NCBI GenBank assembly: GCA_964630525.1
Contig: CAZVUY010000002.1
Coordinates: 99,693 to 163,692, forward strand
DNA: 64,000 nt
Direction: 5' to 3'
Source of the DNA: an uncultured Candidatus Saccharibacteria bacterium
Lineage (GTDB): Bacteria > Patescibacteriota > Minisyncoccia > Phycocordibacterales > WO2-35-19
Each line of letters begins with the position of its first letter. The first letter of the stretch is position 1. Both the position numbers and the translations under genes were made by a program. The notes beneath the pieces are model-generated. The model did no database searches. It saw nothing but the letters and a program-made list of their open reading frames with translations, and had not been told where the DNA came from. This document shows positions 1,483 to 41,228 of this stretch, piece by piece.

Positions 1483-1485
1483 GTT

Positions 1486-2682: not shown

Positions 2683-3054
2683 ATGTGGCTGGATAGATCT
2701 AAAAAAATATGTGAGAAAGGCAATTGGTTTCCAATACCTTATGAGTTGGTAGATGAGTATGCAAAAGAGGTAAAGACCGGCCCTTTTTCAATCTATATTT
2801 GTTTATTAAGGCATAGGAACGAAAAAGATGATTTTTCTTTCCCATCCCAAAAACTTATAGCCAAAAAACTCGGTATCAGTAACAGAACGGTAATCAAATA
2901 CTTAAAGGTTTTAGAACAGCTAGGGTGGATTAAGACCGCAAAAAAACGCGAACACAATGGGACCAGGAGGAAAAACCGCTACTTCTTTACCAAACCCAGT
3001 TTATGGAAAAAGCGATTAGACCAGGTGAAAGATAAGTCGCCTCCATGTGAATAA
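2683..3054 (+). CDS. winged-helix/HTH DNA-binding protein (replication-initiator or DnaD-like N-terminal type), element-associated
   Basis: Motif LIAKKLGISNRTVIKYLKVLEQLGWI typical of wHTH DNA-binding domains; basic C-terminus; sits directly upstream of the recombinase. Confidence 0.4.
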   Translation: MWLDRSKKICEKGNWFPIPYELVDEYAKEVKTGPFSIYICLLRHRNEKDDFSFPSQKLIAKKLGISNRTVIKYLKVLEQLGWIKTAKKREHNGTRRKNRYFFTKPSLWKKRLDQVKDKSPPCE

Positions 3055-3124: not shown

Positions 3125-4855
3125 ATGGAAACTTCTACAAAAACAAGCAACAATGATAAAATAATTGAAATGAATAACAAAGCAGTAATTTATTGCAGAG
3201 TATCATCCAAAGAGCAGGAAGAAACCGGCTATTCATTGCCGGCACAGGAAAAACTACTTACTGAATATGCTCAAAAAAGAGGTTTGGATATAGTAAAGAT
3301 ATTTTCTATATCTGAATCAGCAAGTGGTGCAAAGCAGCGGCAAGTATTCTATGAAATGATGAGCTTTTTGGGGAATAAAAACATCCCTCATCTGTTATGC
3401 GAAAAAGTAGATCGCATTACTCGTAATATGAAAGATGCGGTAGTAATAAATGATTGGATTGAAGATGATGCAGAAAGACAAATCCACTTCATAAAACAGA
3501 ATCTTGTAATTCATAAGAATGCAAAGTCAGACGAGAAGTTTCGCTGGGATATTGAAATTGTCCTAGCCAAAAAATATATCGCAAACCTATCGGAGGAAGT
3601 GAAAAAAGGACAAGCAGAAAAAATTAGGCAGGGATGGCTACCAACAAGACCACCCATCGGGTATAGGACTGTCGGAGAAAAAGGCCATAAAACTCATGTG
3701 ATTGATGAAAATACAGCTCCACTCATAAGGAAAGCTTTTGAGTTGTATGCCACTGGCAATTATTCTATGAAGCGACTAGCTGATGAGTTGTATAAAGACG
3801 GCCTCCGAACGAAATTAGGAAAGAAGCCGGCCAAAAGCAGGATTGAAGATATTCTCAAAGAGCCATTTTATTATGGTGCGATCAGGTGGAATGATGTGCT
3901 TCACAACAATGGCGCCCATAAGCCGATTATAACCAAAGAGTTGTTTGATAAGGTTACAGAGGTCCGGACAAGGGGTGATACTCCAAAATATCAGAGGCAT
4001 CAGTTCACCTTTCGTAAACTTCTAAGATGCAAGGAGTGTGATGGCACGATCACGGCCGAGATTCAAAAAGGAATTATTTACTATCACTGCACTCATTACA
4101 AAGGTTGCACTCAAAATAAATACACCCCAGAGAAGCAAATAGAGGAAAAATTATTAGGTGTATTTAAGTTTTTTGAGAATATAACTCCGGGAGAGGCAGA
4201 GCGTATCAAGGATAAAATAAAGGCCAATCACGCTGTTGAGATTGAATACAAGGAAAACACCATAAAGTCCCTCAACGAGCGGTATAGCCACTTACAGAGG
4301 CGCGTAGACCAGTTATATGACGATAGGTTGGACCATATAATCACCAACGAGCATTGGGAGAGAAAGCAGAAGGAGATAAACGACGAGCAGGCAGTAATCA
4401 GAGATCAGTTGGCCCAACTCAAAAGTGAGGAAACGAAATATTTTGAAATCTGGCTCAATATCTTGGACCTTGCTAGGAGGGCAAGAGAGATATACCAAAA
4501 GAGAAGCCCGGAACAGCGTAGGACCCTTATAAAGTATATTTTTCAAACCCTTATGCTAAAAGATGGAGAAACCGAATCCACCCTAAAGCCGACTATTGAA
4601 AAAATAGCCAAAAGAGTGCAACAGAAGCTAGATCAAGAAAAGATTTTCGAACAGACACAAAAAACCGCTAAAAGCACTGCTTCTAGCGACTCTTTGCGTT
4701 CTTCAAAACCAAATAATCCGTTAGAACTTTCGGAGGGTCAAAATAATTTTCGAACCTCAAAAAAGCTCTCTGTTAAGGCACGACACAGTGATTTGCACAC
4801 TGCTTCACGCCCTCTGCTCCGGGAGCAGGGATCGAACCTGCGACCAATCGCTTAA
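3125..4855 (+). CDS. large serine recombinase (resolvase/invertase catalytic domain, recombinase domain, zinc ribbon, coiled coil)
   Basis: N-terminal VIYCRVSSKEQ with catalytic Ser; recombinase domain; zinc ribbon CKECDG...HC; long coiled-coil tail; the ORF ends inside tRNA-Asn. Confidence 0.85.
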   Translation: METSTKTSNNDKIIEMNNKAVIYCRVSSKEQEETGYSLPAQEKLLTEYAQKRGLDIVKIFSISESASGAKQRQVFYEMMSFLGNKNIPHLLCEKVDRITRNMKDAVVINDWIEDDAERQIHFIKQNLVIHKNAKSDEKFRWDIEIVLAKKYIANLSEEVKKGQAEKIRQGWLPTRPPIGYRTVGEKGHKTHVIDENTAPLIRKAFELYATGNYSMKRLADELYKDGLRTKLGKKPAKSRIEDILKEPFYYGAIRWNDVLHNNGAHKPIITKELFDKVTEVRTRGDTPKYQRHQFTFRKLLRCKECDGTITAEIQKGIIYYHCTHYKGCTQNKYTPEKQIEEKLLGVFKFFENITPGEAERIKDKIKANHAVEIEYKENTIKSLNERYSHLQRRVDQLYDDRLDHIITNEHWERKQKEINDEQAVIRDQLAQLKSEETKYFEIWLNILDLARRAREIYQKRSPEQRRTLIKYIFQTLMLKDGETESTLKPTIEKIAKRVQQKLDQEKIFEQTQKTAKSTASSDSLRSSKPNNPLELSEGQNNFRTSKKLSVKARHSDLHTASRPLLREQGSNLRPIA

Positions 4856-4888
4856 CAGGCGACTGCTCTACCGCTGAGCTATCCCGGA
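4817..4888 (-). tRNA. tRNA-Asn (anticodon GTT)
   Basis: Manually folded cloverleaf: perfect 7-bp acceptor TCCGGGA/TCCCGGA, D-arm GCTC-AGCGGTA-GAGC, anticodon loop CTGTTAA, T-loop TTCGATC. Confidence 0.85.
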
Positions 4889-28846: not shown

Positions 28847-31594
28847 ATGGAGCACAAATTTTCTTCACCAGTATCGCCCTTCAAAAATTCTGAAGAAGAA
28901 ATTGCGCATTTGCGCCAGCTCATATCTGAGAAGGAACGAGCCTTAGAAAATATAGGTTTAAAAAGGGAGGATCTGGTTGAGGCACGAGAGACACTAGCCC
29001 AATACAAAACTGCCAAACACGCAGAAGTCTTACACCCTTCTTTTACACTCAATGAAGCCACTGTTGGAGAGCTGGCTCTCAAGTTGGCACCCGAAGAGCA
29101 TGATACTCAGATCGCTGAACTCATGAAATTAGTCAAAGAGAAAGGGATCAAGAATGCTCTTTCGGTTGTTGAGAAATTGGCTGATTTTCATATCACCGAC
29201 GACTTTCATCGCTTTGTCGCCGAATATTTAAAGGAAGGGTTTACCATCCCTGGTTTGGTAGAAAAAGAGGCAATAGCCAAGGGTTTGTCGATGGTGTTGT
29301 ATGAAGTTTTGATCCCAGAAGAGGTTGGCAGGGAAGAGACAAAAAGTTTGTCGGATATCATCGCCGGGATGGAGCAGTTTTATGCCAGCATGCTCTCACT
29401 TTCACCTGATGGCAAGAGTGCCGACAGTTGGATGTCGCTTGAGATCGCGAATGCTAATTTTTCTCAGGAAATTGTTTTTTATGTAGCCGTGCCAACTTCT
29501 CGCAGAAGCCTTTTTGAAAAATCGATCATTTCAATTTTCCATAACGTCAAGATTAGAGAAATGCCCGATGATTACAATATTTTCAACAAAACCGGTTTTA
29601 CCGCCGGCGCTTATGCTGCTTTTGCCAAAAAACCGATTTACCCGATCAAGACTTATGAAAATTTTGTCCATGATCCGCTCAACCTGATCCTCTCCAGTTT
29701 TTCCAAAGTCAATCGTGACGGAGAGGGAGCCGCGATTCAGCTTATTTGGTCGCCGATGGGAGATCGTTATTTGAAAAAATACAAAGAAGCACTTGAAAAA
29801 ATAAAAAAAGGAACACCTTTAAAAGAAGCTATCGATATCCCAGACAGTATCGGCGGTGAATTTGTCCACACTTTTAGAGATCTCTTTTCTTCCAAGCCAA
29901 CCAAGAAAGAAGGTGAGCCGGAAAAGCCGGAAATCATTGATCAGGCGGCGCTTGAAGAAATCGGCAAAAAGATAGCGGCGCCAATAATCAAATGCAATTT
30001 GCGTTTGCTCGCTTCTGCTCACACCAAAGAGGAAGCTGAGGAGATCCTCGATAGTCTGAAAGCGAGTTTCAATCAGTTTACCAACACGCTGGGCAATAGT
30101 TTCGAATGGAAGAAAACGGAAAAGGGCGCTTTGCGGTCGCTGGTGCGCAACTTTGTCTTTCGTCTTTTTGAAGATGCTTCGGCTCTGCCAATGAATCTCA
30201 AGGAGCTTAACTCTGTTATTCATTTTCATACCAAAGCCCTCAGTGCTTCTGAGGGTTTGCGCCAATCACGCTCGGCCACCGCTCAGGCACCACTCGATAT
30301 TAGTAGAGAAGGGTTGTTGTTGGGAGTGAACAAGCACCGCAACATAGAGACCGAAGTCAGGGTGTCGGAAGATGATCGGTTGAGACACTTCTACTGCATT
30401 GGGCAGACCGGTACCGGCAAATCAACTCTGCTGAAAGAAATGATCATTCAGGATATAAAGATGGGTAATGGGGTTTGTATGATCGATCCACATGGTAGCG
30501 ATGTGCAAGATGTGCTCGCCAATATTCCAAGTGAGCGGTATGAAGACCTGATCTATTTTGATCCTGGCTTCACTGCTCGACCGATGGCACTCAACATGCT
30601 CGAGTATGACCCAAACTTCCCAGAGCAAAAAACTTTTGTGGTCAATGAACTTTTCAATATTTTCCGCAAACTCTATGGCAATGTGCCGGAATCGATGGGA
30701 CCGGCCTTTGAACAATATTTCAGAAACTCGGCTCTCTTGGTAATGGAAGACCCCGCTTCCGGCAATACTCTAGTGGATATGTCGCGTGTCCTTTCTGACA
30801 AAGCATATCGCGATCTCAAACTTTCTCGTTGTAAAAACCCGCTGGTCAAGCAGTTCTGGATCAATGCCGAGAAGACGACCGGGGAGCAAGGTTTGGCCAA
30901 CTATGTGCAGTATGTCACTAACAAGTTTGATGTTTTCTTGGCCAACGAGATTATGCGGCCGATCGTCGCTCAAGAAAAATCCTCTTTCAACTTCAGAGAC
31001 ATTATGGATGGTAAAAAAATTCTTTTGGTCAATTTGGCCAAAGGTCGACTCGGCGATCTCAATGCCAACCTTATAGGCTTGATCCTAGTGGGCAAAATAC
31101 TGATGGCGGCGCTCTCCCGGGTAGATATGTTTGGTAAAGATTTTCCACCCTTTTATCTCTACATAGATGAATTTCAAAATATTACAACTGACTCAATTGC
31201 TACCATTCTTTCAGAAGCGAGAAAATACAAGCTCTCGCTGAATATTGCTCACCAGTTTATCGCTCAGCTTGAAGAAAATATCAGAGATGCTGTTTTTGGT
31301 AACGTTGGCTCACTTTGCTCTTTTAGGGTGGGGGCCGAGGATGCTGAATATTTGGAAAAGCAATTCACTCCGACTTTCGTAGCTTCCGATCTGATGAATA
31401 TCGACAATCGCAATGCCTATTTGCGGCTTTTGGTAAATGGTAAGCCCGCTAAACCTTTCAATATTGCCGTCTTGCCACCGCCAGTAGGCAACCTAGAACA
31501 GGTAGAAAATCTGAAACAACTTTCTTATGTCAGCTTCGGGCGACCTCGAGAAGAAGTGGAAAAAATGGTTTTAGAGAAATATAAAATAACTTAA
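28847..31594 (+). CDS. VirD4/TraD/TrwB-family coupling-protein-like ATPase with a ~480-aa soluble N-terminal domain of unknown function
   Basis: Walker A GQTGTGKST, IDPHG (TrwB IDPKG-like), Walker B YLYIDEF, and IAHQFIAQL of the TraG-D_C type; no N-terminal TM helices. Confidence 0.65.
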   Translation: MEHKFSSPVSPFKNSEEEIAHLRQLISEKERALENIGLKREDLVEARETLAQYKTAKHAEVLHPSFTLNEATVGELALKLAPEEHDTQIAELMKLVKEKGIKNALSVVEKLADFHITDDFHRFVAEYLKEGFTIPGLVEKEAIAKGLSMVLYEVLIPEEVGREETKSLSDIIAGMEQFYASMLSLSPDGKSADSWMSLEIANANFSQEIVFYVAVPTSRRSLFEKSIISIFHNVKIREMPDDYNIFNKTGFTAGAYAAFAKKPIYPIKTYENFVHDPLNLILSSFSKVNRDGEGAAIQLIWSPMGDRYLKKYKEALEKIKKGTPLKEAIDIPDSIGGEFVHTFRDLFSSKPTKKEGEPEKPEIIDQAALEEIGKKIAAPIIKCNLRLLASAHTKEEAEEILDSLKASFNQFTNTLGNSFEWKKTEKGALRSLVRNFVFRLFEDASALPMNLKELNSVIHFHTKALSASEGLRQSRSATAQAPLDISREGLLLGVNKHRNIETEVRVSEDDRLRHFYCIGQTGTGKSTLLKEMIIQDIKMGNGVCMIDPHGSDVQDVLANIPSERYEDLIYFDPGFTARPMALNMLEYDPNFPEQKTFVVNELFNIFRKLYGNVPESMGPAFEQYFRNSALLVMEDPASGNTLVDMSRVLSDKAYRDLKLSRCKNPLVKQFWINAEKTTGEQGLANYVQYVTNKFDVFLANEIMRPIVAQEKSSFNFRDIMDGKKILLVNLAKGRLGDLNANLIGLILVGKILMAALSRVDMFGKDFPPFYLYIDEFQNITTDSIATILSEARKYKLSLNIAHQFIAQLEENIRDAVFGNVGSLCSFRVGAEDAEYLEKQFTPTFVASDLMNIDNRNAYLRLLVNGKPAKPFNIAVLPPPVGNLEQVENLKQLSYVSFGRPREEVEKMVLEKYKIT

Positions 31595-32514: not shown

Positions 32515-32590
32515 GGGCCATTAGCTCATTTGGTAGAGCGCGCCCATGGCATGGGCGAGGTGAGCGGTTCGATCCCGCTATGGTCCACCA
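32515..32590 (+). tRNA. tRNA-Ala (anticodon GGC) with encoded CCA
   Basis: Manually folded: acceptor GGGCCAT/ATGGTCC with G3:U70, anticodon loop ATGGCAT, T-loop TTCGATC, discriminator A. Confidence 0.85.
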
Positions 32591-32807
32591 TACGAAACTT
32601 GTTCGGAATTACTTTTGCTTGTGGATTATTTTTCAAAAGTGCTTTCAGTGAATCAACATGAAAATGGTCGGCGTGTTCGTGCGTGATAAGTACAAAATCT
32701 ATATTTTTTACTTCGCTCTGTTGTGTTGAATAAGTCCCAGGGTCGGTCAAAATTCTGACTCCTTTTTCTTCTATCAATAAGCAACAATGTCCAAATTTTG
32801 TGATTTT
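32591..32807 (-). pseudogene. truncated MBL-fold metallo-hydrolase: N-terminal ~70 aa only; frame reads into the tRNA-Ala antisense
   Basis: MKITKFGHCCLLIEEKG...ITHEHADHFH (HxHxDH) then no further MBL motifs before abutting the tRNA 3' end. Confidence 0.5.
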
Positions 32808-32814
32808 CATAAAA

Positions 32815-33315
32815 TTATTTTTGACTCTCAATAAGTTTAGAAGCAAGTTTTTTAAGTTCTTCGGAGTCGGCCATTGGTCCACTCCCCGAAGAAATCCAAC
32901 CTTCGTATTTATCAAACCAAAATTCTTTTCCGCTTAAAACTTGCTTCCAAACACCTTGCTTTAGGTTTTCTGTTCCGTGAAGCGGAACAAGTTTAATATG
33001 TGCGTGGTCTATACCTGTTCCTTCCATCATCAATCCAACTCGTCCAACATCGTCAAAATAATTTTCTAAAATATTCGCCACTTTTTTGGAGGCAATTATG
33101 AATCTTTGCAAAACATCATCAGGCATTTTCAAGACATCGCTTCCAAAATGTTGCTTTGGAATTACGCAAGTAAAACCCTTGGTGTTCGGGTCAATGGCAA
33201 GCCAAGCCATAAATTCCTCATCTTCCCAGAACTTTCCAGCCGTTTGCATATTGCCCGCGACTATCTCGCAGAAAATACATTTGTTGTCTTTGGTTGTTGC
33301 TTCGTAGTGAGTCAT
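32815..33315 (-). CDS. HIT-family (histidine triad-like) protein
   Basis: IFCEIVAG N-terminus and GIDHAHIKLVP histidine motif (third His replaced by Lys). Confidence 0.75.
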   Translation of the reverse strand: MTHYEATTKDNKCIFCEIVAGNMQTAGKFWEDEEFMAWLAIDPNTKGFTCVIPKQHFGSDVLKMPDDVLQRFIIASKKVANILENYFDDVGRVGLMMEGTGIDHAHIKLVPLHGTENLKQGVWKQVLSGKEFWFDKYEGWISSGSGPMADSEELKKLASKLIESQK

Positions 33316-33317
33316 AA

Positions 33318-34037
33318 CTAGATAATTTTTCGCCAGCGTTTGAACGCCTTTATATCAGTTGCGTTGAGGTCAAACCATTCGCCATTCATTCGTTTTGCGT
33401 CAAATCGCTTATGCCAATATGCCTCAACGCCGCTGGGGTCGTCAGTCTTTATTTCGTGAATCAAGTCAAGATTTTCTGGTAATTGGATTCTAAGCTCATT
33501 TCCTCTCCGAACAGTGTCAAAAGTTTTTCCAATCTTGTAATACTTGCCATGCCTGAAAAGATAAACTGCACCTTCAATTTCTCCAGAGTCACCCTTTTCA
33601 GTTTCAGTTTTTGAGTTTTGTTCAATGATAGCAGTGCAGATTTTTACAATATCTGCGTATCCTTTCTGTTCGGCATATTCCAAAACCTTATTGACTCTCC
33701 CATTTTTATTTCCAAGACGATCAAAACTTCCTGGGCTTGGAAAGTCGGAATCTCTATGTCTTTTCCCAATTAAATCCGCATTGGTCGGGAATCTGCCAAT
33801 TTCCCGCATTAAGACAACTGCGCTTTCCAACAAAAACTCCATATCGTGTGCAGATTGCAAAGTATTCGGCTCAAAACCCGCTTCACGCTGTGCTTCACCA
33901 AAACTTGGCCAAAATTTCAAAATTTCGTATTCATTGATTCCTGTTTCTTTTCCGAATCTTCCACGACCAAGCGGAACGCCACCATTTTCTTTTGCGGTTT
34001 CCTGGATTGCCTTGATTATATCTTGTTTTGTTGCCAT
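33318..34037 (-). CDS. protein with C-terminal T5orf172/MUG113 (GIY-YIG superfamily) domain
   Basis: GAVYLFRHGKYYKIGKT...RRGNEL...LIHEIKTDDP...AYWHKRF...NGEWFDL. Confidence 0.65.
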   Translation of the reverse strand: MATKQDIIKAIQETAKENGGVPLGRGRFGKETGINEYEILKFWPSFGEAQREAGFEPNTLQSAHDMEFLLESAVVLMREIGRFPTNADLIGKRHRDSDFPSPGSFDRLGNKNGRVNKVLEYAEQKGYADIVKICTAIIEQNSKTETEKGDSGEIEGAVYLFRHGKYYKIGKTFDTVRRGNELRIQLPENLDLIHEIKTDDPSGVEAYWHKRFDAKRMNGEWFDLNATDIKAFKRWRKII

Positions 34038-34038
34038 A

Positions 34039-34245
34039 TCATTTCAAAAGCTCATCAACGGAAACATCAAGCGCTTTGGCGAGCTTTTCTAAAACTGCCA
34101 GCGTAACATTGACCTTTCCTCCCTCAATCGCACTCATGTAGCTTCTGTCCATATCTATTGCTCGACAAATGTCGCCCTGCGACATTTTACGGCGAAGCCG
34201 TATGCGCTTGATGTTTTCTCCAAGTTTTTTGGAAATTTGAGCCAT
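34039..34245 (-). CDS. Cro/C1-type (XRE) HTH regulator
   Basis: LGENIKRIRLRRKMSQGDICRAIDMDRSYMSAIEGGKVNVTLAVLEKLAKAL. Confidence 0.8.
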   Translation of the reverse strand: MAQISKKLGENIKRIRLRRKMSQGDICRAIDMDRSYMSAIEGGKVNVTLAVLEKLAKALDVSVDELLK

Positions 34246-34519
34246 ATTTATATTATCACTTTATCAACTATTGCGCCATGCCTCAATATGGAGGTATAAT
34301 CCCATATATGGATTCTCTTTTTGTAGCCGCCGATTTTTTCAAAAAAGAAAGCCGAAGCCCGCGCGGATTCCTCCCCAGACCCCTCCTCCGCGCGGGCGAG
34401 TCCATCGCCCCGCCTCCTTTGCCCCAGAAAAATAGTGGCGGGGCACATCAGGAGTTCCGTTCAAAGAAAGTTCGAGCAAATGCTAGAATAACACCACATG
34501 TTTAATAATAATTAAAAAT

Positions 34520-35047
34520 ATGTCTACCATTTTAAGTTTATATGCAGTAGAAAAGGGGAAGGTTGAAAAAATTATTAAAGATAAAGATGTTAGCGTATTG
34601 GATCAGATGCCTGACGCTGAATCCAAATCTTACCTAAATAAAATTTTTGATCATGAATACGATCGTGATCCAGATACTTACGAACATCCGGAAGGAGGTC
34701 AGTATATCTTTGCTTTTCATGAATTGTGCAAATTGTCAGCTACAAAATCTACGAGTGTTGAGTGTAGTGTAGATGACGAGCAGACTCCCGAATTTTGGCA
34801 TTTCGTTTGGAGTGATTGGGAACCAGAAGATTTTTTGGAATTACCACTTTCACCAGATGGTTTACCGGCGGTGACTTACAAAGGTTCAACCATGTTGCAA
34901 AAATATATAGACCAACTGAAGGGGGTGGAAGCAAATGGTGGTTATGATTCAAGATTTCTTAAGATCGATGATTTGAGAGAAATTATCAGTTTTCTTCAGG
35001 ATTCTACATCAGCGGGTACGGATGTGTTTGTTTTTATATCAGAATAG
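34520..35047 (+). CDS. acidic hypothetical protein; an immunity-protein-like role is speculative
   Basis: 175-aa acidic ORF, divergent from the XRE gene across a GC-rich palindromic spacer. Confidence 0.4.
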   Translation: MSTILSLYAVEKGKVEKIIKDKDVSVLDQMPDAESKSYLNKIFDHEYDRDPDTYEHPEGGQYIFAFHELCKLSATKSTSVECSVDDEQTPEFWHFVWSDWEPEDFLELPLSPDGLPAVTYKGSTMLQKYIDQLKGVEANGGYDSRFLKIDDLREIISFLQDSTSAGTDVFVFISE

Positions 35048-35170
35048 ATTGAGTTTCTCTGTAAAACTAAAAAATTTTGGTGTTGTCGATGGACACGGTA
35101 TGAGGTTGCTTTTTGCTGATTTTAAACTAATAATTAAATTGGCAGTACTTTGATTTTTTAGGAGGAGTAG

Positions 35171-35758
35171 ATGGGTAAACTGTTGCAAATGGATATTAAC
35201 CCGATGCGTCTCTCGGAACAACTTTTTAACCAAGCTCTCGAATGGGAGCCAGTCAACGTCGAACGCGCTGAAAATCTCTATCAAAGAGCAATCAGAGTTT
35301 ACCCCTACAACGTAGGGGCTCTACTCAATTTGGGCACGATTTTTTTTCGCCGTGACGATTTTAACAGGGCGGAGCAACTCTATCGTCAAACTATCGTAAT
35401 TAATCCTAATTACGCTTTAGCTCATTTTAATCTAGCCAATCTTTTGGATAAACGTTGGCGGAAATGGGAGGCGCTAGAGCATTATCGCACGGCAGTTGAG
35501 ATTGACCCAAACTATGCGGATGCACACTACAACCTTGCTAGCACTCTTCACGACGTGGGGCGCCCAATGGAGGCAGCGAAACATTGGCTTGCTTTCTTGC
35601 GCCTCGAACCTTACGGTGATTTTGCCGAAACTGCCAAGAAAAACTTTTCGGCTATTGCTGACAAGCTTACTGTCCAAAAAAACACAAATCCGGAGGTGCC
35701 TCATGATGGAAAGTTTGGCGCGGTGGTTGGAGAAAATGATGGTGGTGATCTCGTGTGA
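35171..35758 (+). CDS. TPR-repeat protein
   Basis: Several 34-aa TPR-like units (e.g. AEQLYRQTIVINPNYALAHFNLANLL; ALEHYRTAVEIDPNYADAHYNLASTL). Confidence 0.7.
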   Translation: MGKLLQMDINPMRLSEQLFNQALEWEPVNVERAENLYQRAIRVYPYNVGALLNLGTIFFRRDDFNRAEQLYRQTIVINPNYALAHFNLANLLDKRWRKWEALEHYRTAVEIDPNYADAHYNLASTLHDVGRPMEAAKHWLAFLRLEPYGDFAETAKKNFSAIADKLTVQKNTNPEVPHDGKFGAVVGENDGGDLV

Positions 35759-36125
35759 ATCTTTCTGGTGGGGTTATGAAAAAACTTGTGGCCAGGGTGA
35801 CTACCCACAACTTTGGGCAGAAATGGTAGGCAAGGAAATCATCCGTAGCCTTACCAAGATGGTTCATTGTGGGGAGCTCACTGATAAGTTTGTGGTTACC
35901 GGTTTTTTGGTTGGTCGGTTGTATCGGGTCAAAGTTTTTTGTGGTGGAAAGGAGGTGATGAGGGTTGATATATCTCATCCAAACCAGTTGTTGCCGATGA
36001 TGGTGAGAGACGGCCAAGTCCTAGGCCAACCTTTTCATTATTGCACAAACCCAAAACAACTCCTGGAATCATCCGAGGAGTTGCTGACTTATATAATTTG
36101 GCCACATACGAAAGTGGCCACTTGA
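35704..36125 (+). CDS. hypothetical protein (start uncertain; overlaps the TPR gene 3' end)
   Basis: ORF 35496-36125 with the most plausible Met at 35704. Confidence 0.25.
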
Positions 36126-36173
36126 GACCGTCAATCAATGGTTGGTTGGCGGTCTTTGTTTTTTGGCTATTAA

Positions 36174-37244
36174 TTAGTTTCTGGTCAATTCATCTATTTT
36201 AGAAGCCAAGATAAAATCGTTTTCGGAGAGGCCACCGATCGCATGAGTGGAAATCTTTACATCGACGTTTTTAAAGTCGTGAAGCTTGATATCGGGGTGG
36301 TGCCCTTCTTTTTGGGCCACCATCGCTACTTCATTCATGAAATTGACAGCTTCGCGAAAGTCGGTAAACTCGTAAGTTTTTTCTATTTCTTTGTCTTCAA
36401 CCAATGTCCATTGGCTGACTTTTTCAAGTAAACGTTCTGATTCTTCGTGTGATAGGGGAGAAGTGTCTCCTTCGCATGGTACGCAGTGTTTTTGAGAAAG
36501 GGCGGTGAGCGGACCTTCGCCGTTCCCCTTATTGTTTGAGTTGTTTACATCTTCTGATTTCTCGTCGTATTTTAAACCTATCCTGACAGGAGCATTTTTT
36601 ATCGCCTCAAGAACTTTTTGTTCGTCATCTGTTATGAGGTAAAGTTCCAAATCTTTTTCTTCGATCATGGAATTTGAAATCAGAATTTCTCTGAAAAAAT
36701 TCTCAAGAGGTTTCCAGTAACTTTCTCCAAAAAGGATGATGGGTACTCTTGGTATTTTATTTGTTTGAACTAGTGTCAAAATTTCCAAAAACTCATCTAA
36801 TGTGCCAAACCCTCCAGGAAAGAAAATATAAGCTTCCGCAGAAAAAGAAAGACAAACTTTGCGACTAAAAAAATAATGAAAACCCATTTTATGGGTCAGA
36901 TATTCGCTTGTTACTTGTTCGTGGGGGAGTTCGATCGTGAGGCCGACCGAATTGCCACCGGCTTCGTAAGCGCCGCGACTCGCCGCTCTCATGATACCTG
37001 GCCCACCGCCAGTGACGATCGAATAATGTAGCTCTTCGACGATGCGGCGAGCCAAAGTCCTGGCCTTCTCATAATATTCGTCACTTTCTTTGGTTCTGGC
37101 TGAGCCAAAAAAAGTAACCGAGCGGGGATAATTTTTTATAAATTCGAAACCATCGGCAAATTCTTTGGAGATAAGAGCAACCCTTTTTTGGGCAGCTTGG
37201 CTTAGCTCGACTAAGGTCAGAGGTTTGTTGTCCATGCTGATCAT
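36174..37244 (-). CDS. fusion of a LOG-family (TIGR00730, lysine-decarboxylase-like) domain with a C-terminal pterin-4a-carbinolamine dehydratase (PCD/DCoH) domain
   Basis: LOG motifs GGGPGIMRA and PGGFGTLDE in the N-terminal ~230 aa; C-terminal ~100 aa with E-G-H-H-P-D PCD signature. Confidence 0.7.
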   Translation of the reverse strand: MISMDNKPLTLVELSQAAQKRVALISKEFADGFEFIKNYPRSVTFFGSARTKESDEYYEKARTLARRIVEELHYSIVTGGGPGIMRAASRGAYEAGGNSVGLTIELPHEQVTSEYLTHKMGFHYFFSRKVCLSFSAEAYIFFPGGFGTLDEFLEILTLVQTNKIPRVPIILFGESYWKPLENFFREILISNSMIEEKDLELYLITDDEQKVLEAIKNAPVRIGLKYDEKSEDVNNSNNKGNGEGPLTALSQKHCVPCEGDTSPLSHEESERLLEKVSQWTLVEDKEIEKTYEFTDFREAVNFMNEVAMVAQKEGHHPDIKLHDFKNVDVKISTHAIGGLSENDFILASKIDELTRN

Positions 37245-37373
37245 TTTAATTGTTTTAAATAATAAGGCAATATGATAAAATAGACTCCGAGGCTAAAAGT
37301 TATAAGTTTAACCTGTCTTCGCTGAAGCTTCCGGTCTAGTGCCAAGGCTGACGGCGAGGCAAGAAATTAAAAA

Positions 37374-37880
37374 ATGAGGAAATTATCTAAGAATGAGTGG
37401 GTAGCGACAGTGCTTGCGATCGCTTTCGTTGCTTATACTTTGTTTGGAGGCAGTATTATGGGATTATTCAAAAAAAATTCAATGAATGAAAACTCGGCAG
37501 CCGCTATCAATACTACAGCTAATAGCAGCAATTCCTCGGTTATTATAAATGACATTACTGTTGGTAATGGTCAGGAAGTTAAAAATGGTGATCTGGTGTC
37601 AGTACATTACATTCTCTCGCTCTCAGATGGTACTGTTTTGCAGAATTCCAAAGATGTTGGTGCACCATTTCAGTTTACTCTCGGTGCTGGTGAAGTGATC
37701 CCTGGGTGGGAGCAAGGTTTTGCAGGTATCAAGGTTGGTGGTGTCCGTACCATTGTTATCCCACCAGAGCTTGCTTATGGCGCCAACCAGGCTGGACCAA
37801 TCCCACCAAATTCAACTCTAATCTTTACTATTGAAGTTGTAGATACTACTCCTGCTCCAGCTGCTGCAACCACTCAATAA
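37374..37880 (+). CDS. FKBP-type peptidyl-prolyl isomerase with signal or anchor
   Basis: VSVHY...DGTVLQNS...FQFTLGAGEVIPGWEQG...LIFTIEVV. Confidence 0.85.
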   Translation: MRKLSKNEWVATVLAIAFVAYTLFGGSIMGLFKKNSMNENSAAAINTTANSSNSSVIINDITVGNGQEVKNGDLVSVHYILSLSDGTVLQNSKDVGAPFQFTLGAGEVIPGWEQGFAGIKVGGVRTIVIPPELAYGANQAGPIPPNSTLIFTIEVVDTTPAPAAATTQ

Positions 37881-37883
37881 TCA

Positions 37884-39080
37884 ATGTTTCGGATTGAAAA
37901 AGAGATACCTAATTTTCTTGGCCGAGCCGGTGTTCTAGAGACTTCTCATGGGTCTATCAAGACACCGGCTTTTGTGACGGTAGGTACCAAGGGTACGGTC
38001 AAGTCTTTGACTCCTGAACAAGTGAAAGATCTTGGGGCTCAGGTGGTGTTGGCTAATACTTATCACCTATATCTGGAGCCGGGCGATGAAATGGTGAAAA
38101 AGATGGGTGGTTTGGGTCAAATGATGCAGTGGTCGGGTCCCACCATGACTGACTCGGGCGGCTTCCAAGCTTTTTCTTTGGGTGTGGCTTATGAGTATGG
38201 TATTGGTAAGTTCATTTCGAGTGAAGCGCCTCAAGAGCAGGTGGTGGAAGAGGCTTATGATACTACTCGCAAGAACAAAAAAGCCAAAATCACAGAAGAT
38301 GGGGTCGAGTTTCAGTCGGTGATCGATGGTAGTACTCACTTTTTTTCACCGGAAAAATCTATCCAGATTCAGAAAAATATCGGGGCTGACATAATATTTG
38401 CTTTCGATGAATGTACTTCGCCTCACGCCGGCTATCAGTATCTCAAAGAGTCAATGGAACGCACCCACCGCTGGGCGGAGAGGTGTTTGGGGGAACACAA
38501 AAAGAGCCCACCCTCCCAATCCCTTTTCGGTATCGTCCAGGGTGGTCGGTATCAGGATTTGCGTGAAGAAAGTGCCAAAGTGGTAAGTGCGATGGGTTTC
38601 GATGGCTTTGGGATCGGCGGTTCATTTGTCAAAGAAGATATGCATGATGCGGTGAAATGGGTCAACACTGTTTTGCCCAAAGAGAAACCAAGACATTTGC
38701 TCGGGGTGGGTGAGCCAGCTGATCTTTTTGGAGCGGTGGAAAATGGTTGTGATCTTTTCGATTGTGTCGCCCCAACCAGGATCGCGCGCAACGGTACTCT
38801 CTACACTCATTTTGGCAAAATCAATATTTTGAATAGTAAATTCAAAAATGATCTAGTTCCCATAGATGAAGGGTGCGATTGCTACACCTGTCAAAAATAT
38901 TCTCGTGCTTACGTGGCTCACTTATTTCGAGCTAAAGAAATGTTGGGGGCCACTCTCGCCTCAATCCACAACCTACGTTTTATTGTGAGGATGGTTGATG
39001 CTATGCGTGAAGCTATTTTAAACGGCACTTTTTTTGAATACAAAAAAAATTTTCTTGATCGCTATCAACAAACAATATGA
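37884..39080 (+). CDS. tgt: queuine tRNA-ribosyltransferase
   Basis: DSGGFQ, DCVAPTR and zinc site CDCYTCQKYSRAYVAHL. Confidence 0.9.
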   Translation: MFRIEKEIPNFLGRAGVLETSHGSIKTPAFVTVGTKGTVKSLTPEQVKDLGAQVVLANTYHLYLEPGDEMVKKMGGLGQMMQWSGPTMTDSGGFQAFSLGVAYEYGIGKFISSEAPQEQVVEEAYDTTRKNKKAKITEDGVEFQSVIDGSTHFFSPEKSIQIQKNIGADIIFAFDECTSPHAGYQYLKESMERTHRWAERCLGEHKKSPPSQSLFGIVQGGRYQDLREESAKVVSAMGFDGFGIGGSFVKEDMHDAVKWVNTVLPKEKPRHLLGVGEPADLFGAVENGCDLFDCVAPTRIARNGTLYTHFGKINILNSKFKNDLVPIDEGCDCYTCQKYSRAYVAHLFRAKEMLGATLASIHNLRFIVRMVDAMREAILNGTFFEYKKNFLDRYQQTI

Positions 39081-39092
39081 TATATTATCCGC

Positions 39093-41228
39093 ATGAAATT
39101 TGAGCTGAAGGCCAAATTTGATCCTGCCGGAGATCAGCCAAAAGCTATTGAAAAATTGGTGGCTGGTGTGCGAAAGGGCAAAGATCATCAAACACTGCTC
39201 GGGGTGACAGGGAGCGGCAAGACTTTTACTATTGCCAATGTGATAGAGAAGATCAATAAGCCGACTTTGGTCATTGCCCACAACAAAACCTTGGCCGCCC
39301 AACTCACTCAGGAATATCGAGAATTTTTCCCCAACAATGCTGTTCATTATTTTGTTTCTTATTACGATTTCTACCAGCCGGAAGCTTATATGCCGGTCAC
39401 CGATACTTATATAGAAAAAGAGGCAATGATCAATGAGGAGATCGAGCGGTTGCGCCACGCTTCGACCGAAGCTTTGCTCACCCGAAAAGATGTGATCATC
39501 GTGGCCTCTGTTTCTTGTATTTATGGCTTAGGTTCTCCGGAAGAATATGAAAAAGTGAATCTCAAAATCGAAGCGGAAAGCAAGATAAACCGAGCCGAGT
39601 TCTTACGAAAACTGATTTATATCCACTATGAGCGGACCAACGCTGACCTGACGCCCGGTACTTTTCGGGCGATCGGCAATATTATTGAGATCATGCCGGT
39701 CTCTGAAAAACAGGTTTATCGGCTTGAAGTGGTGGGCGACCAGATCAAATCTATCCAACAAATAGATGCTATTTCCAGAAGTATTTTGGCTGAACCGAAA
39801 GCTTTTTATCTTTTTCCGGCCAAGCATTTCATTACCGCCGAAGAAGATGTTAAAAGAGCGCTAAAATCGATCAAGGCTGAGTTGGCAGCACAACTTAAAA
39901 AATTTGAAAAAGAAGGCAAGCTTTTGGAGGCTGATCGACTAAAACGTCGCACTGGCTACGACCTCTCTATGATCAAAGAGGTTGGCTATTGCAACGGTAT
40001 CGAAAATTATTCCAGGCATTTTGATGGTCGCGAGGCGGGCGAACCACCTCACTCTCTGCTCTCTTATTTCCCAAAAGACAAAGATGGTAAGCCGGATTTT
40101 CTCACAGTGATCGATGAATCGCATGTCACCGTCTCTCAAATTGGTGGTATGTACGCCGGCGACGCCTCCAGAAAAGAAACCTTGATCGAGCATGGTTTTC
40201 GCTTGCCAAGCGCCAAAGACAATCGACCACTCAAGTTCCCTGAATTTACCGAACGGATTGGGCAGGTTATCTACACTTCAGCTACTCCGGGCAAATATGA
40301 ACTTGATAAAAGCGGGAAAGAAGGGGTGGCAGAACAAATCATTCGTCCGACAGGACTCTTGGATCCGGAAGTTTTCGTAAGACCGATCAGTCAGACCTCA
40401 CCCCCGACCCCTCTCCTTGGTAAGGAGAGGGGAGAAGTGGTTTTTTCTGATTCCCCCCTTAAGGTAAGGGGGGCTAGAGGGGATATGAATAAAAAAGCAG
40501 GTTACCCAGGCCAGATTCTCGATTTCATCAATGAGGCGGTGAAAGAAGTAAAGAAAGGCAATCGGGTTATTGCTACCACTCTTACCAAAAAGATGGCTGA
40601 GGATCTGTCTGAGTACTTAAAGGAAAAAAAGATTCGAGCTGAATATTTGCATAGTGATATCAAAACTATTGAAAGAATAGAAATTTTGACCAGGCTAAGA
40701 AAAGGGGAGTTTGATGTGTTGGTTGGGGTCAATCTCTTGCGAGAAGGTTTGGACCTGCCAGAAGTTTCTTTTATCGGCATTCTCGATGCAGACAAAGAGG
40801 GTTTTTTGCGAAGCGAAACTTCTTTGATTCAGACGATCGGTCGGGCAGCCCGCAACGTCGAGGGGCGAGTCATCCTTTATGCCGATCAGCTGACTGGTTC
40901 GATGGAGCGCGCAATCTCAGAAACAAATCGTCGGCGTGCTTTGCAGATCGCTTACAACAAAGCGCACGGTATCACGCCGCAGACCATCAAGAAAGAAATA
41001 AAAGATATCACCGAACAAATGCAACGAGAGCACAAAAAGGCGGTGGGTACGCTCCTTGCGATAGATTTGAAGAAGGGGGGCAAGGACGGACTCTCTGCTA
41101 AACAGGTGGCCAAATTGATCAAGACCAAAGAAAAACAAATGAACGCCGCCGTCAAAATCCTCGATTTCGAATCCGCCGCCATCCTCCGTGATGAGATTAA
41201 GGAATTGGAGAAAATGATCTCGGGCTAG
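39093..41228 (+). CDS. uvrB: excinuclease ABC subunit B with a ~39-aa in-frame insertion
   Basis: GVTGSGKTFTIAN Walker A, beta-hairpin region, C-terminal UvrC-interaction helix; insertion between VRP and QILDF relative to the canonical UvrB core. Confidence 0.9.
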   Translation: MKFELKAKFDPAGDQPKAIEKLVAGVRKGKDHQTLLGVTGSGKTFTIANVIEKINKPTLVIAHNKTLAAQLTQEYREFFPNNAVHYFVSYYDFYQPEAYMPVTDTYIEKEAMINEEIERLRHASTEALLTRKDVIIVASVSCIYGLGSPEEYEKVNLKIEAESKINRAEFLRKLIYIHYERTNADLTPGTFRAIGNIIEIMPVSEKQVYRLEVVGDQIKSIQQIDAISRSILAEPKAFYLFPAKHFITAEEDVKRALKSIKAELAAQLKKFEKEGKLLEADRLKRRTGYDLSMIKEVGYCNGIENYSRHFDGREAGEPPHSLLSYFPKDKDGKPDFLTVIDESHVTVSQIGGMYAGDASRKETLIEHGFRLPSAKDNRPLKFPEFTERIGQVIYTSATPGKYELDKSGKEGVAEQIIRPTGLLDPEVFVRPISQTSPPTPLLGKERGEVVFSDSPLKVRGARGDMNKKAGYPGQILDFINEAVKEVKKGNRVIATTLTKKMAEDLSEYLKEKKIRAEYLHSDIKTIERIEILTRLRKGEFDVLVGVNLLREGLDLPEVSFIGILDADKEGFLRSETSLIQTIGRAARNVEGRVILYADQLTGSMERAISETNRRRALQIAYNKAHGITPQTIKKEIKDITEQMQREHKKAVGTLLAIDLKKGGKDGLSAKQVAKLIKTKEKQMNAAVKILDFESAAILRDEIKELEKMISG
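40408..40473. repeat. two GC-rich perfect hairpins inside the uvrB CDS: CCCCTCTCC-TTGGTAA-GGAGAGGGG (40408-40432) and CCCCCCTTA-AGG-TAAGGGGGG (40453-40473)
   Basis: Read directly from the sequence; they encode the uvrB insertion segment. Confidence 0.8.

What the first reader, a model, noticed from the sequence alone, without database searches (positions are those of the whole stretch)
36174..37244. LOG-family phosphoribohydrolase-like domain fused to a pterin-4a-carbinolamine dehydratase domain
A single 356-aa ORF has LOG motifs (GGGPGIMRA, PGGFGTLDE) in its first ~230 aa. After a Ser/Asn/Gly linker it has a DCoH/PCD domain with the E-G-H-H-P-D signature. The two enzyme families are normally separate, so this is a rare domain architecture. 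It may couple nucleotide-derivative hydrolysis with pterin recycling, or form a regulatory fusion.
Basis: partly seen in the sequence, partly recalled or inferred. Interest (0 to 1): 0.5.

Follow-up and report, generated by a model that had tools for sequence, protein, structure and literature searches.

The report
LOG–pterin dehydratase fusion enzyme
In one group of tiny uncultured bacteria (Paceibacteria), a real, conserved gene joins a nucleotide-cleaving LOG enzyme to a pterin-recycling dehydratase; relatives carry the two as overlapping separate genes or have lost the second part, so this is an undescribed but modest variation on two well-known enzymes.

Summary
Window 36174..37244 (minus strand) is one uninterrupted 356-aa ORF. 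Its N-terminal part is a type-II LOG phosphoribohydrolase domain (TIGR00730 144 bits; TM about 0.9 to 5wq3/1wek/5zi9). A disordered linker of about 28 aa joins it to a complete pterin-4a-carbinolamine dehydratase (PCD) domain (PF01329, E=2e-30). It is not a frameshift artefact: at least 97 protein clusters (51-94% identity) from Paceibacteria/Patescibacteria metagenomes share the architecture, and the catalytic residues of both domains are invariant or nearly so. At 50% clustering the fusion collapses to one family among 1.84 billion representatives, so it is specific to one lineage. In the same genomic slot (divergent from FKBP-tgt-uvrB), relatives carry LOG and PCD as separate genes overlapping by 4-13 nt, or LOG alone with a leftover linker tail. 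This is an operon-derived fusion that has repeatedly split or decayed. AlphaFold predicts no fixed contact between the domains. The most likely reading is a bifunctional protein with two independent, catalytically competent enzymes. The reason for pairing them is unproven. A compact aromatic amino-acid hydroxylase, the canonical PCD client, exists in Paceibacteria, but I could not show it in a genome that carries the fusion. I found no literature on this architecture. Interest is modest: a new variant of known kinds.

The parts
36174..37244 (-). Whole LOG-PCD fusion gene (356 aa plus stop codon at 36174..36176)
   Evidence: Single ORF. PF03641 + PF01329. Same architecture in at least 97 clusters at 90% identity.
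37134..37214 (-). N-terminal alpha-1 helix (aa 11-37), the hexamerisation helix typical of type-II LOGs
   Evidence: AlphaFold helix H11-37, pLDDT 83-92. It aligns to the N-terminal extension of CgLOGII 5wq3 and TT1465 1wek. The role of alpha-1 in hexamer formation is from PMC5379747.
36579..37223 (-). Type-II LOG (TIGR00730) phosphoribohydrolase domain, aa 8-222
   Evidence: TIGR00730 144 bits. 5wq3 E=1e-52. Foldseek TM about 0.9 (normalised to target) to 5zi9/1wek/5wq3/9us2.
36984..37013 (-). T-G-G-G-P-G-I-M-R-A nucleotide-binding loop (aa 78-87)
   Evidence: G79, G80, G83 and M85 are invariant in 68 fusions.
36858..36863 (-). R128-K129; R128 is equivalent to catalytic Arg155 of CgLOGII
   Evidence: Offset of +27 in the alignment. 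Catalytic role from PMC5379747. Invariant in A1 and A3.
36792..36818 (-). PGGFGTLDE motif (aa 143-151). E151 is equivalent to catalytic Glu178; D150 is equivalent to the type-II-specific Asp177.
   Evidence: Identical to CgLOGII 170-PGGFGTLDE-178. G144, G145, G147, T148, D150 and E151 are invariant.
36495..36578 (-). Inter-domain linker (aa 223-250), Asn/Ser/Gly-rich, variable in length among relatives
   Evidence: pLDDT 46-57. The alignment shows variable length and composition. LOG-only relatives keep its proximal part, '..NGxGPLSxLSKK', as a C-terminal tail.
36177..36494 (-). Pterin-4a-carbinolamine dehydratase (PCD/DCoH, PhhB-like) domain, aa 251-356
   Evidence: PF01329 covers profile positions 2-91 of 91, E=2.3e-30. 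PDB 2v6s/2ebb/3hxa/1dch. pLDDT about 90-94.
36474..36485 (-). C254-V-P-C257 motif at the start of the PCD domain
   Evidence: C254 and C257 are invariant in 68 fusions. The equivalent Cys pair is invariant in 33 standalone CPR PCDs. Its function is not known to me.
36291..36308 (-). E313-G-H315-H316-P317-D318, the PCD active-site histidine pair
   Evidence: H315, H316 and P317 are invariant. They align to the D-H-H-P-E motif of rat/human DCoH.
36243..36248 (-). T333-H334, the third active-site histidine of PCD
   Evidence: T333 is invariant and H334 is conserved in at least 90% of sequences. It aligns to the S-T-H of DCoH.
37245..37373 (.). 129-nt divergent intergenic region between the fusion gene and the FKBP-tgt-uvrB operon
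   Evidence: Promoter-like sites on both strands (consensus matches only). The divergent arrangement is conserved in all related loci.
37374..41228 (+). Conserved neighbours: membrane-anchored FKBP PPIase (37374..37880), tRNA-guanine transglycosylase TGT (37884..39080) and UvrB (39093..41228). These are context, not shown to be functionally linked.
   Evidence: Pfam. Synteny with LOG is kept even in distant LOG-only relatives at 54-57% identity.

Best explanation
The gene encodes a bifunctional protein made of two independently folding, catalytically competent enzymes. (1) A type-II (hexamer-type) LOG nucleoside-5'-monophosphate phosphoribohydrolase, which cleaves the N-glycosidic bond of AMP-type nucleotides to give a free base plus ribose-5-phosphate. 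(2) A PhhB-type pterin-4a-carbinolamine dehydratase, which dehydrates 4a-hydroxytetrahydropterin to quinonoid dihydropterin. The two are tethered by a flexible linker of about 28 aa. The fusion arose within Paceibacteria (Patescibacteria/CPR) from a LOG gene and a PCD gene that lay head-to-tail with overlapping stop and start codons. The LOG gene was already resident next to FKBP-tgt-uvrB. Small changes at the junction merged the two genes, probably more than once. In some descendants the genes split again or the PCD part was deleted. SHOWN: the ORF is real; both domains are complete with conserved active sites; fused, split and LOG-only states occupy one syntenic slot; the fusion is restricted to one lineage; the linker is predicted disordered. 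INFERRED: the two enzyme activities themselves; that the domains work independently, so that the fusion mainly secures co-expression and equal stoichiometry (three PCD dimers could sit on the three dimeric 'petals' of a LOG hexamer); that LOG serves nucleotide/base/ribose-5-P salvage in a scavenging symbiont; and that PCD recycles the pterin cofactor of the compact aromatic amino-acid hydroxylase found in this bacterial class.
For: Domain identity and completeness. Type-II LOG hallmarks (alpha-1 helix, PGGFGTLDE, Arg/Glu catalytic pair, Asp at the type-II position) map onto the window protein. Both active sites are invariant or nearly so in 68 fusions at 51-94% identity. The LOG-linked PCD has the same active-site motifs as PCDs adjacent to a hydroxylase. 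Split, overlapping LOG/PCD gene pairs occur in the same slot in independent assemblies and samples: L008/L009, L014, L101, L104/L105, L112. LOG-only orthologues in the same slot keep the linker tail and have no PCD remnant nearby. Trees place split forms basally and LOG-only forms inside fused clades. The AlphaFold model has two domains with pLDDT above 90, a linker with pLDDT 46-57 and pTM 0.61. A PF00351 hydroxylase family of about 240 aa exists in Paceibacteria/Minisyncoccia/Nomurabacteria and sits next to PCD in L044 and L095/L096. An AAH-PCD fusion (P0485) shows that PCD does fuse with a known functional partner. CgLOGII and TT1465, the closest solved relatives, have measured phosphoribohydrolase activity and no lysine decarboxylase activity (PMC5379747).
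Against: No activity was measured for any member. I could not show that a genome carrying the fusion also encodes a hydroxylase: there is none in the 64-kb window or in any fetched LOG-PCD locus. In a rough NJ tree, the hydroxylase-linked PCDs of Paceibacteria form a separate clade from the LOG-linked ones, which could mean the LOG-linked PCD has another job. A persistent, translationally coupled LOG-PCD pair that became fused hints at a functional link that 'independent activities' does not explain. The window protein has Gln (Q311) where most family members have Glu four residues before the His pair; the significance is unknown. The trees are neighbour-joining without support values.
Confidence: 0.6

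Rival explanations
1. The two domains act in one pathway on a common class of ligand: a pterin or pterin-like (2-amino-4-oxo-pyrimidine) base or nucleotide. For example, LOG would release a pterin, 7-deazaguanine or modified purine base from its ribosyl-5'-phosphate, and PCD would then bind, dehydrate or repair it. One version feeds the neighbouring TGT, with LOG acting on queuosine/preQ nucleotides as eukaryotic Qng1 does. Another version is nucleotide-pool or cofactor repair.
For: Translationally coupled gene pairs and fusions are classic indicators of a shared pathway. LOG-fold proteins can bind a pterin cofactor: Moco carrier proteins belong to the same Pfam family and bind Moco where LOGs bind the nucleotide phosphate (PMC7470044). 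COG2154 PCDs were assigned 'a role in Moco metabolism' (PMC3223725). LOG is divergently adjacent to tgt across more than 45% sequence divergence, even where the far flank changes from uvrB to truB. Standalone CPR PCDs repeatedly overlap another N-glycosidase, HhH-GPD (L010, L020, L015), or sit by repair genes.
Against: The LOG domain is of the enzyme type (TIGR00730 144 bits), not the carrier type (TIGR00725 46.8 bits against a cutoff of 106.9; RoMCP itself scores 115.8). The LOG-tgt synteny predates PCD and sits inside a larger conserved block (mraZ, PBP, TraG-like), so it may simply be inherited gene order. FKBP, which shares the operon with tgt, has no obvious tie to tRNA modification, so operons here mix functions. 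PCD was lost repeatedly without loss of LOG. No confident domain interface is predicted. By my own reading the TGT pocket is the bacterial preQ1 type (D-E-C; Val at the Z. mobilis V233 position), not the queuine type. No Moco, queuosine-synthesis or pterin-synthesis genes are in the window.
Confidence: 0.2
2. The PCD domain is mainly a structural or regulatory module, like DCoH acting as a dimerisation cofactor. It would cross-link or stabilise LOG hexamers, or sense a pterin-like ligand to regulate LOG, rather than work as a metabolic dehydratase.
For: The PCD/DCoH fold is known to moonlight as a protein-binding module: DCoH-HNF1 complexes 1f93/1dch appear among the PDB hits. PCDs oligomerise, so six tethered copies per LOG hexamer could pair up (inference from PMC5379747). 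PCD is dispensable in several lineages.
Against: The complete catalytic signature (H-H-P, T-H, N-D) is invariant or nearly so in 68 fusions, and identical to that of hydroxylase-linked PCDs. A purely structural role would not need this. The same PCD subfamily exists as free-standing genes in many contexts. No interface with LOG is predicted.
Confidence: 0.12
3. Artefact: a sequencing or assembly frameshift, or a chimeric contig, falsely joined two neighbouring genes.
For: Split forms with overlapping reading frames do exist in relatives, so a single indel could create an apparent fusion.
Against: At least 97 clusters from many independent samples and sources (NCBI, JGI, ENA, Logan) have the same continuous ORF. 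The exact window protein is also on record in an NCBI assembly. The linker is alignable across fusions. LOG-only forms retain the linker tail, which only makes sense if the fusion was real.
Confidence: 0.01

Closest known systems
Type-II (hexameric) LOG cytokinin riboside 5'-monophosphate phosphoribohydrolases: CgLOGII/Cg1261 (5wq3), T. thermophilus TT1465 (1wek), S. coelicolor (5zi9)
   Same: About 43% identity over about 200 aa, TM about 0.9. N-terminal alpha-1 helix, PGGFGTLDE motif, Arg/Glu catalytic pair and the type-II Asp.
   Different: The known members are single-domain proteins. This one carries a C-terminal linker plus a PCD domain. Its substrate range is unknown, and the organism is a CPR symbiont with no known reason to make cytokinins.
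Bacterial PhhB / mammalian PCD-DCoH (pterin-4a-carbinolamine dehydratase, PF01329, COG2154)
   Same: Full-length domain match with the active-site His-His-Pro, Thr-His and Asn-Asp motifs. The N-terminal C-x-x-C is typical of this bacterial subfamily.
   Different: PCD is normally a free protein of about 100-115 aa encoded beside phhA. Here it is fused or coupled to LOG, with no hydroxylase gene nearby. The window copy has Gln instead of the usual Glu four residues before the His pair.
Moco carrier proteins / plant Moco-binding proteins (LOG-fold, TIGR00725 type)
   Same: Same Pfam fold family. They show that a LOG-like Rossmann fold can hold a pterin cofactor (PMC7470044).
   Different: The window domain scores below the TIGR00725 cutoff, shares only 28% identity over 82 aa with RoMCP, and keeps the enzyme motifs.
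AAH-PCD fusion (P0485, 318 aa, PF00351+PF01329) and phhA-phhB operons in Paceibacteria (L044, L095/L096)
   Same: PCD fused or adjacent to a partner gene in the same bacterial class.
   Different: There the partner is the canonical pterin-dependent hydroxylase. Here it is a nucleotide hydrolase with no known pterin chemistry.
Other multi-domain LOG proteins: PpnN/YgdH (LOG core with flanking domains) and tandem LOG-LOG proteins (P0122, P0142, P0173 and others)
   Same: They show that the LOG core tolerates added domains.
   Different: None of them carries PCD. The PpnN model scores 33 bits against a cutoff of 450.
Qng1/DUF2419 queuosine-5'-monophosphate glycosylase (eukaryotic queuine salvage)
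   Same: A functional analogy only. It is an N-glycosidase acting on a nucleoside 5'-monophosphate that supplies TGT with its base (PMC9881137, abstract). The gene here lies beside tgt.
   Different: Unrelated fold. There is no evidence that this LOG acts on queuosine nucleotides.

Membership tests
Type-II LOG (TIGR00730; PF03641) | Sequence match above the curated family cutoffs | tested here: met
   TIGR00730 144.2 bits against 96.35. PF03641 111.9 bits against 27.
Type-II LOG (TIGR00730; PF03641) | PGGxGTxxE nucleotide-binding motif with catalytic Glu, plus catalytic Arg (CgLOGII Arg155/Glu178) | tested here: met
   P143-GGFGTLD-E151 is identical to CgLOGII 170-178. R128 aligns to Arg155. 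Both are invariant in 68 homologues.
Type-II LOG (TIGR00730; PF03641) | Extended N-terminal alpha-1 helix and Asp at the position before the catalytic Glu (type-II synapomorphies) | tested here: met
   AlphaFold helix 11-37 aligns with the N-terminal extension of 5wq3/1wek. D150 is present.
Type-II LOG (TIGR00730; PF03641) | Hexameric quaternary structure | not testable with these tools
   Only a monomer prediction was available.
Type-II LOG (TIGR00730; PF03641) | Phosphoribohydrolase activity on AMP or cytokinin nucleotides | not testable with these tools
   This needs an enzyme assay. It has been shown for the homologues Cg1261 and TT1465 (PMC5379747).
Pterin-4a-carbinolamine dehydratase (PF01329 / COG2154) | Full-length domain match above the curated cutoff | tested here: met
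   PF01329 105 bits against 26, covering profile positions 2-91 of 91. NF002017 80.6 bits against 80. The other NF0020xx equivalogs score below their whole-protein cutoffs.
Pterin-4a-carbinolamine dehydratase (PF01329 / COG2154) | Active-site histidines (H-H-P and a later T/S-H) and a downstream acidic residue | tested here: met
   H315-H316-P317, T333-H334 and N342-D343 align with the DCoH residues and are conserved. The roles of these residues in catalysis are from my own knowledge of the DCoH literature.
Pterin-4a-carbinolamine dehydratase (PF01329 / COG2154) | Acidic or basic residue four positions before the His pair (part of the PCD activity motif of Naponelli et al. 2008, recalled from memory; the paper was not available) | tested here: inconclusive
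   The window has Q311. Most fusions and standalone CPR PCDs have E at this position. The motif itself could not be checked.
Pterin-4a-carbinolamine dehydratase (PF01329 / COG2154) | A pterin-dependent aromatic amino-acid hydroxylase partner in the same genome | tested here: inconclusive
   None in the window or in the LOG-PCD loci. The hydroxylase is present in the class and adjacent to other PCDs.
Moco carrier protein (TIGR00725 type LOG fold) | Match to TIGR00725 above the cutoff, as for the validated carrier RoMCP | tested here: not met
   The window scores 46.8 bits against a cutoff of 106.9. RoMCP scores 115.8. Pairwise identity is 28% over 82 aa.
PpnN nucleotide 5'-monophosphate nucleosidase | Match to NF038390 with its flanking regulatory domains | tested here: not met
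   33.1 bits against a cutoff of 450. Only the LOG core aligns.
SLOG-domain anti-phage defence proteins | Match to a defence-system model and a location in a variable defence island | tested here: not met
   Only a marginal PsyrA hit (E=9e-5, 19.7 bits). The gene sits in a conserved housekeeping slot in all relatives.

The most novel reading that the evidence does not exclude
The LOG-PCD pair is a two-step salvage or repair module for a pterin-like base. The LOG domain would free a 7-deazaguanine, pterin or damaged-guanine base from its ribosyl-5'-phosphate. The PCD domain would then bind it or dehydrate a carbinolamine form of it. This would feed the adjacent TGT (a bacterial counterpart of Qng1-type queuine salvage) or cleanse the nucleotide/cofactor pool. 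If so, it would give PCDs in organisms without a hydroxylase, and type-II LOGs outside plant-associated bacteria, a defined function.
Probability: 0.1. Interest if true: 0.75.

Novelty: new variant of a known kind. Interest (0 to 1): 0.35.

Why it matters
Two questions are still open: what type-II LOG enzymes do in bacteria that have no dealings with plants, and what COG2154 PCDs do where no aromatic amino-acid hydroxylase is evident. Both genes are kept in CPR bacteria with genomes of about 0.5-1 Mb, so both are probably useful to a scavenging lifestyle. A lineage in which the two are translationally coupled and then fused is a natural 'Rosetta stone' suggesting they may be linked. It also provides a single small soluble protein that can be expressed and assayed for both activities and for any cross-talk. 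If the domains prove independent, the finding is just a tidy example of operon-to-fusion-to-decay evolution, and a correction to the current annotation ('TIGR00730 family Rossman fold protein'), which hides the PCD half.

Tried and rejected
(1) Frameshift or chimera artefact: rejected.

(2) Independent LOG+PCD fusions in other lineages: ten of the other two-stretch hits in the exhaustive search were checked by Pfam and are LOG-LOG tandems. A local PCD screen of all 150 listed hits found PCD only in P0037, P0121 and P0138.

(3) PCD remnants downstream of LOG-only genes: none by tblastn at E<=10.

(4) A conserved small ORF downstream of the fusion: the ORFs of 82-94 aa are not conserved between loci or in the window.

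(5) A universal partner of standalone PCD in CPR/DPANN: none. Neighbours vary: HhH-GPD three to four times, AAH, Ddl, DinB, RecF, Dus, PilM and others.

(6) tgt linkage as evidence of function: LOG-FKBP-tgt synteny is real but older than PCD and embedded in wider conserved gene order, so it is not decisive.

(7) Moco-carrier identity of the LOG domain: rejected.

(8) Defence-system identity: rejected.

(9) Co-occurrence of hydroxylase and fusion in one genome: this could not be established. The extra look-ups of P0429 and of the window protein gave nothing useful.

(10) Literature on this architecture: four searches found nothing. The key COG2154 paper (PMC2287330) is not held.

(11) Caveat on counts: '97 of the top 120 are fused' is biased, because a full-length query scores fused proteins higher. 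In the metagenome sample, of 14 loci carrying LOG, 9 were LOG-only, 4 split and 1 fused.
Full report
OBSERVATION. Window 36174..37244 contains one uninterrupted ORF on the minus strand (ATG start, 356 aa). Pfam finds PF03641 (LOG/'lysine decarboxylase') at aa 85-214 (E=3e-32) and PF01329 (pterin-4a-carbinolamine dehydratase, PCD) at aa 263-353, covering the entire profile (E=2e-30). NCBIfam puts the N-terminal part in TIGR00730 (144 bits, cutoff 96) and the C-terminal part in the 4a-hydroxytetrahydrobiopterin dehydratase models. The closest solved structures by sequence are the type-II LOGs 5wq3, 1wek and 5zi9 (E=1e-52 to 1e-48), and for the C-terminal part the PCDs 2v6s, 2ebb, 3hxa and 1dch.

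NOT AN ARTEFACT, BUT CONFINED TO ONE LINEAGE.
- A search of 5.8 billion protein clusters returned the same two-domain architecture in proteins of 342-396 aa at 51-94% identity. The sources are NCBI, JGI, ENA and Logan, and where named the organisms are Candidatus Paceibacterota, Parcubacteria, Zambryskibacteria or 'Patescibacteria group'.
- A local PCD screen found the domain in 97 of the top 120 clusters. That fraction is inflated, because a full-length query ranks fused proteins first.
- NCBI names these proteins only 'TIGR00730 family Rossman fold protein' (for example HEY4480273.1, MEK7642321.1, MCX6703467.1), which hides the PCD half.
- In the exhaustive search of 1.84 billion 50%-identity representatives there were 15,910 LOG hits. 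Among the best 150, only one full-length representative (P0037) and two fragments carry PCD. Other two-stretch hits that I tested are LOG-LOG tandems.
- The architecture is therefore real, recurrent within one clade, and absent or very rare elsewhere.

ANATOMY.
- The type-II LOG paper (PMC5379747) defines the class by four features: an extra N-terminal alpha-1 helix that builds a hexamer, the motif 170-PGGFGTLDE-178, the catalytic residues Arg155 and Glu178, and an Asp at position 177.
- With the +27 offset of the HMMER alignment, these map to helix 11-37 (AlphaFold), P143-E151, R128, E151 and D150.
- In an alignment of 68 fusions, G79, G80, G83, M85, R128, K129, G144, G145, G147, T148, D150 and E151 are invariant. 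In the PCD part, C254, C257, W279, H315, H316, P317, T333 and N342 are invariant, and H334 and D343 are conserved in at least 90% of sequences.
- The PCD residues align with the His-His-Pro, Thr-His and Ser-Glu-x-Asp elements of rat/human DCoH.
- AlphaFold (68-sequence alignment) gives mean pLDDT 86.9. Both domains are above 90, residues 223-250 are at 46-57, and pTM is only 0.61. That means two well-folded beads on a flexible string, with no confident interface.
- Foldseek superposes the N-terminal domain on type-II LOG crystal structures at TM about 0.9, normalised to the target.

GENOMIC CONTEXT AND EVOLUTION.
- The gene is transcribed divergently from an operon encoding a membrane-anchored FKBP isomerase, tRNA-guanine transglycosylase (TGT) and UvrB. 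The same arrangement holds in relatives at 54-80% identity.
- Three gene states occupy this one slot. (i) Fused: the window, L001-L004, L013, L016, L108. (ii) Split: a LOG gene of 232-254 aa whose stop overlaps the start of a PCD gene of 112-118 aa by 4-13 nt, or is separated from it by about 8 nt. These are L008/L009 (two assemblies), L014, L101, L104/L105 (two samples) and L112. (iii) LOG-only: L005-L007, L097-L100, L102, L103, L106, L107.
- LOG-only proteins close to the window protein still carry the proximal linker ('..NGxGPLSxLSKK') and stop exactly where PCD would begin. No PCD remnant lies within 8 kb. They are therefore truncated descendants of a fusion.
- Neighbour-joining trees (rough, no support values) place split forms near the base, show two or three fused clades, and nest LOG-only forms inside the window's fused clade.
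- More distant LOG-only genes (54-57% identity) already sit beside FKBP-tgt-uvrB, so the LOG-tgt synteny predates the arrival of PCD.
- The simplest history has four steps: a resident LOG gene; a PCD gene inserted downstream in overlapping, translationally coupled fashion; fusion by small junction changes, possibly more than once; and later fission or PCD loss in some lines.

WHAT THE PCD DOMAIN NORMALLY DOES IN THESE ORGANISMS.
- Free-standing PCDs of about 110 aa at 50-74% identity to the window domain are common across Patescibacteria, and also occur in DPANN archaea, Planctomycetota, Acidobacteriota and others.
- Their neighbours vary. An HhH-GPD DNA glycosylase lies immediately upstream in L010/L011, L020 and L015. 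Ddl lies upstream in L012 and L077. DinB, RecF, Dus, an RsmI-like methylase and PilM each occur once or twice.
- In a Minisyncoccia MAG (L044) and a Paceibacterota MAG (L095/L096), PCD lies directly after a compact 238-240-aa biopterin-dependent aromatic amino-acid hydroxylase (PF00351, E=1e-35). This is the classical phhA-phhB pair.
- That hydroxylase family has dozens of clusters named Minisyncoccia, Paceibacterota or Nomurabacteria, and one member (P0485) is itself fused to PCD.
- So the canonical client of PCD exists in this bacterial class. I could not establish that it exists in a genome that carries LOG-PCD. There is no hydroxylase in the 64-kb window or in any LOG-PCD locus, and the remaining look-ups did not help.
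- In a rough PCD tree, the hydroxylase-linked PCDs of Paceibacteria cluster apart from the LOG-linked ones, although the active-site motifs are the same.

MECHANISM: BEST READING AND RIVALS.
- Best reading (0.6). This is a bifunctional protein with two independent catalytic domains. One is a type-II LOG nucleotide phosphoribohydrolase, releasing base plus ribose-5-phosphate, which is useful to an organism that lives by scavenging nucleotides. The other is a genuine PCD. They are fused because they were already co-transcribed and translationally coupled. The fusion fixes 1:1 stoichiometry. A LOG hexamer built of three dimers could carry three PCD dimers; this last point is inference only. The disordered linker, the lack of a predicted interface, the repeated loss of PCD with retention of LOG, and the wide occurrence of PCD without LOG all argue against obligatory coupling.
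- Rival 1 (0.2): a shared pathway on a pterin-like ligand. It draws some support from the literature. Moco carrier proteins are LOG-fold proteins that bind a pterin cofactor in the nucleotide site (PMC7470044), and COG2154 PCDs have been tied to Moco metabolism (PMC3223725). The adjacency to tgt, and the recurrent pairing of CPR PCDs with another N-glycosidase (HhH-GPD), also fit. Against it, the LOG domain here is clearly the enzyme type and not the carrier type, the tgt synteny is older than PCD, and there are no supporting pathway genes in the window.
- Rival 2 (0.12): PCD as a structural or regulatory appendage. This is weakened by the strict conservation of the catalytic signature.
- Rival 3 (0.01): artefact. 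This is excluded.

COMPARISON WITH THE KNOWN, AND NOVELTY. Each half is an ordinary member of a well-studied family: type-II LOG, and PhhB-like PCD. The combination is what is new. I found no paper that mentions it, and public annotation does not flag it. It is best classed as a new variant (a new domain architecture) of known kinds. It is not a new kind of system.

VERDICT. The finding is real and correctly described. The functional interpretation remains a hypothesis. Interest is modest (0.35). The fusion is a useful lead on two under-explained enzyme families in minimal-genome bacteria and a clean case of operon-to-fusion-to-decay evolution, but nothing here demands a new mechanism.

Noticed in passing
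window 1-4900 (recombinase 3125..4855 +; tRNA-Asn 4816..4888 -): A large serine recombinase (Resolvase + Recombinase + Zn-ribbon domains) ends inside or abutting a tRNA-Asn gene. The first 4 kb have lower GC (0.36-0.37 against about 0.43) and include an HTH_36/DnaD-like protein (2683..3054). This looks like an integrated mobile element at a tRNA gene.
   Followed up: partly
window 31900-35760: A block lies between the conserved TraG-like/DUF8128 ATPase (28847..31594) and the fusion gene. It contains tRNA-Ala (32515..32590), a HIT-domain protein, a MUG113/T5orf172 (GIY-YIG-like) protein, an XRE-type HTH, a weak DUF7691 match and a TPR protein. The block is absent from the syntenic loci L001 and L005-L007. 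It is a variable island. No defence-system match was found apart from generic HTH 'control protein' hits.
   Followed up: partly
L044:7260-7976; L095:10001-10720; L093:10001-10723; P0390-P0484: Paceibacteria/Minisyncoccia/Nomurabacteria encode a compact (about 238-245 aa) biopterin-dependent aromatic amino-acid hydroxylase (PF00351). It is sometimes followed by PCD and sometimes by a GNAT acetyltransferase instead. A pterin-dependent hydroxylase in such reduced genomes raises the question of where the pterin comes from.
   Followed up: partly
P0485 (318 aa): A protein carrying both PF00351 (hydroxylase) and PF01329 (PCD), that is a phhA-phhB fusion. It is known only from Logan assemblies.
   Followed up: no
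L010:6345-7336, L011, L020:7286-8327, L015:1632-2557: In several CPR genomes the standalone PCD gene starts at or within the stop codon of an upstream HhH-GPD base-excision DNA glycosylase gene. This is a second recurrent pairing of PCD with an N-glycosidase.
   Followed up: partly
P0122, P0142, P0157, P0163, P0173, P0174, P0177 and others: Many proteins of 420-460 aa are tandem LOG-LOG duplications, with two PF03641/PF18306 stretches. Some of the longer hits (600-3300 aa) with LOG domains were not examined.
   Followed up: no
window 39093..41228 (UvrB) and 37884..39080 (TGT): The window UvrB is 711 aa, against 669-678 aa in syntenic relatives. It appears to carry an extra Pro/Gly/Ser-rich segment around aa 440-485. 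The TGT Pfam match is broken into two stretches, which suggests an insertion near aa 95-130. Neither was aligned in detail.
   Followed up: no
window 36124..36156: A 15-bp-stem hairpin followed by a T-run on the + strand lies 18 nt beyond the stop codon of the fusion gene, between it and the convergent TPR gene region. It may terminate the + strand transcript and possibly acts in both directions.
   Followed up: no
window 28847..31594 and L001, L005-L007: A protein of about 916 aa (DUF8128, with weak TraG-D_C/DUF87 ATPase matches) is conserved next to the LOG slot and the mraZ-rsmH-PBP cluster across Paceibacteria loci. It is a conserved but uncharacterised housekeeping-like ATPase.
   Followed up: no
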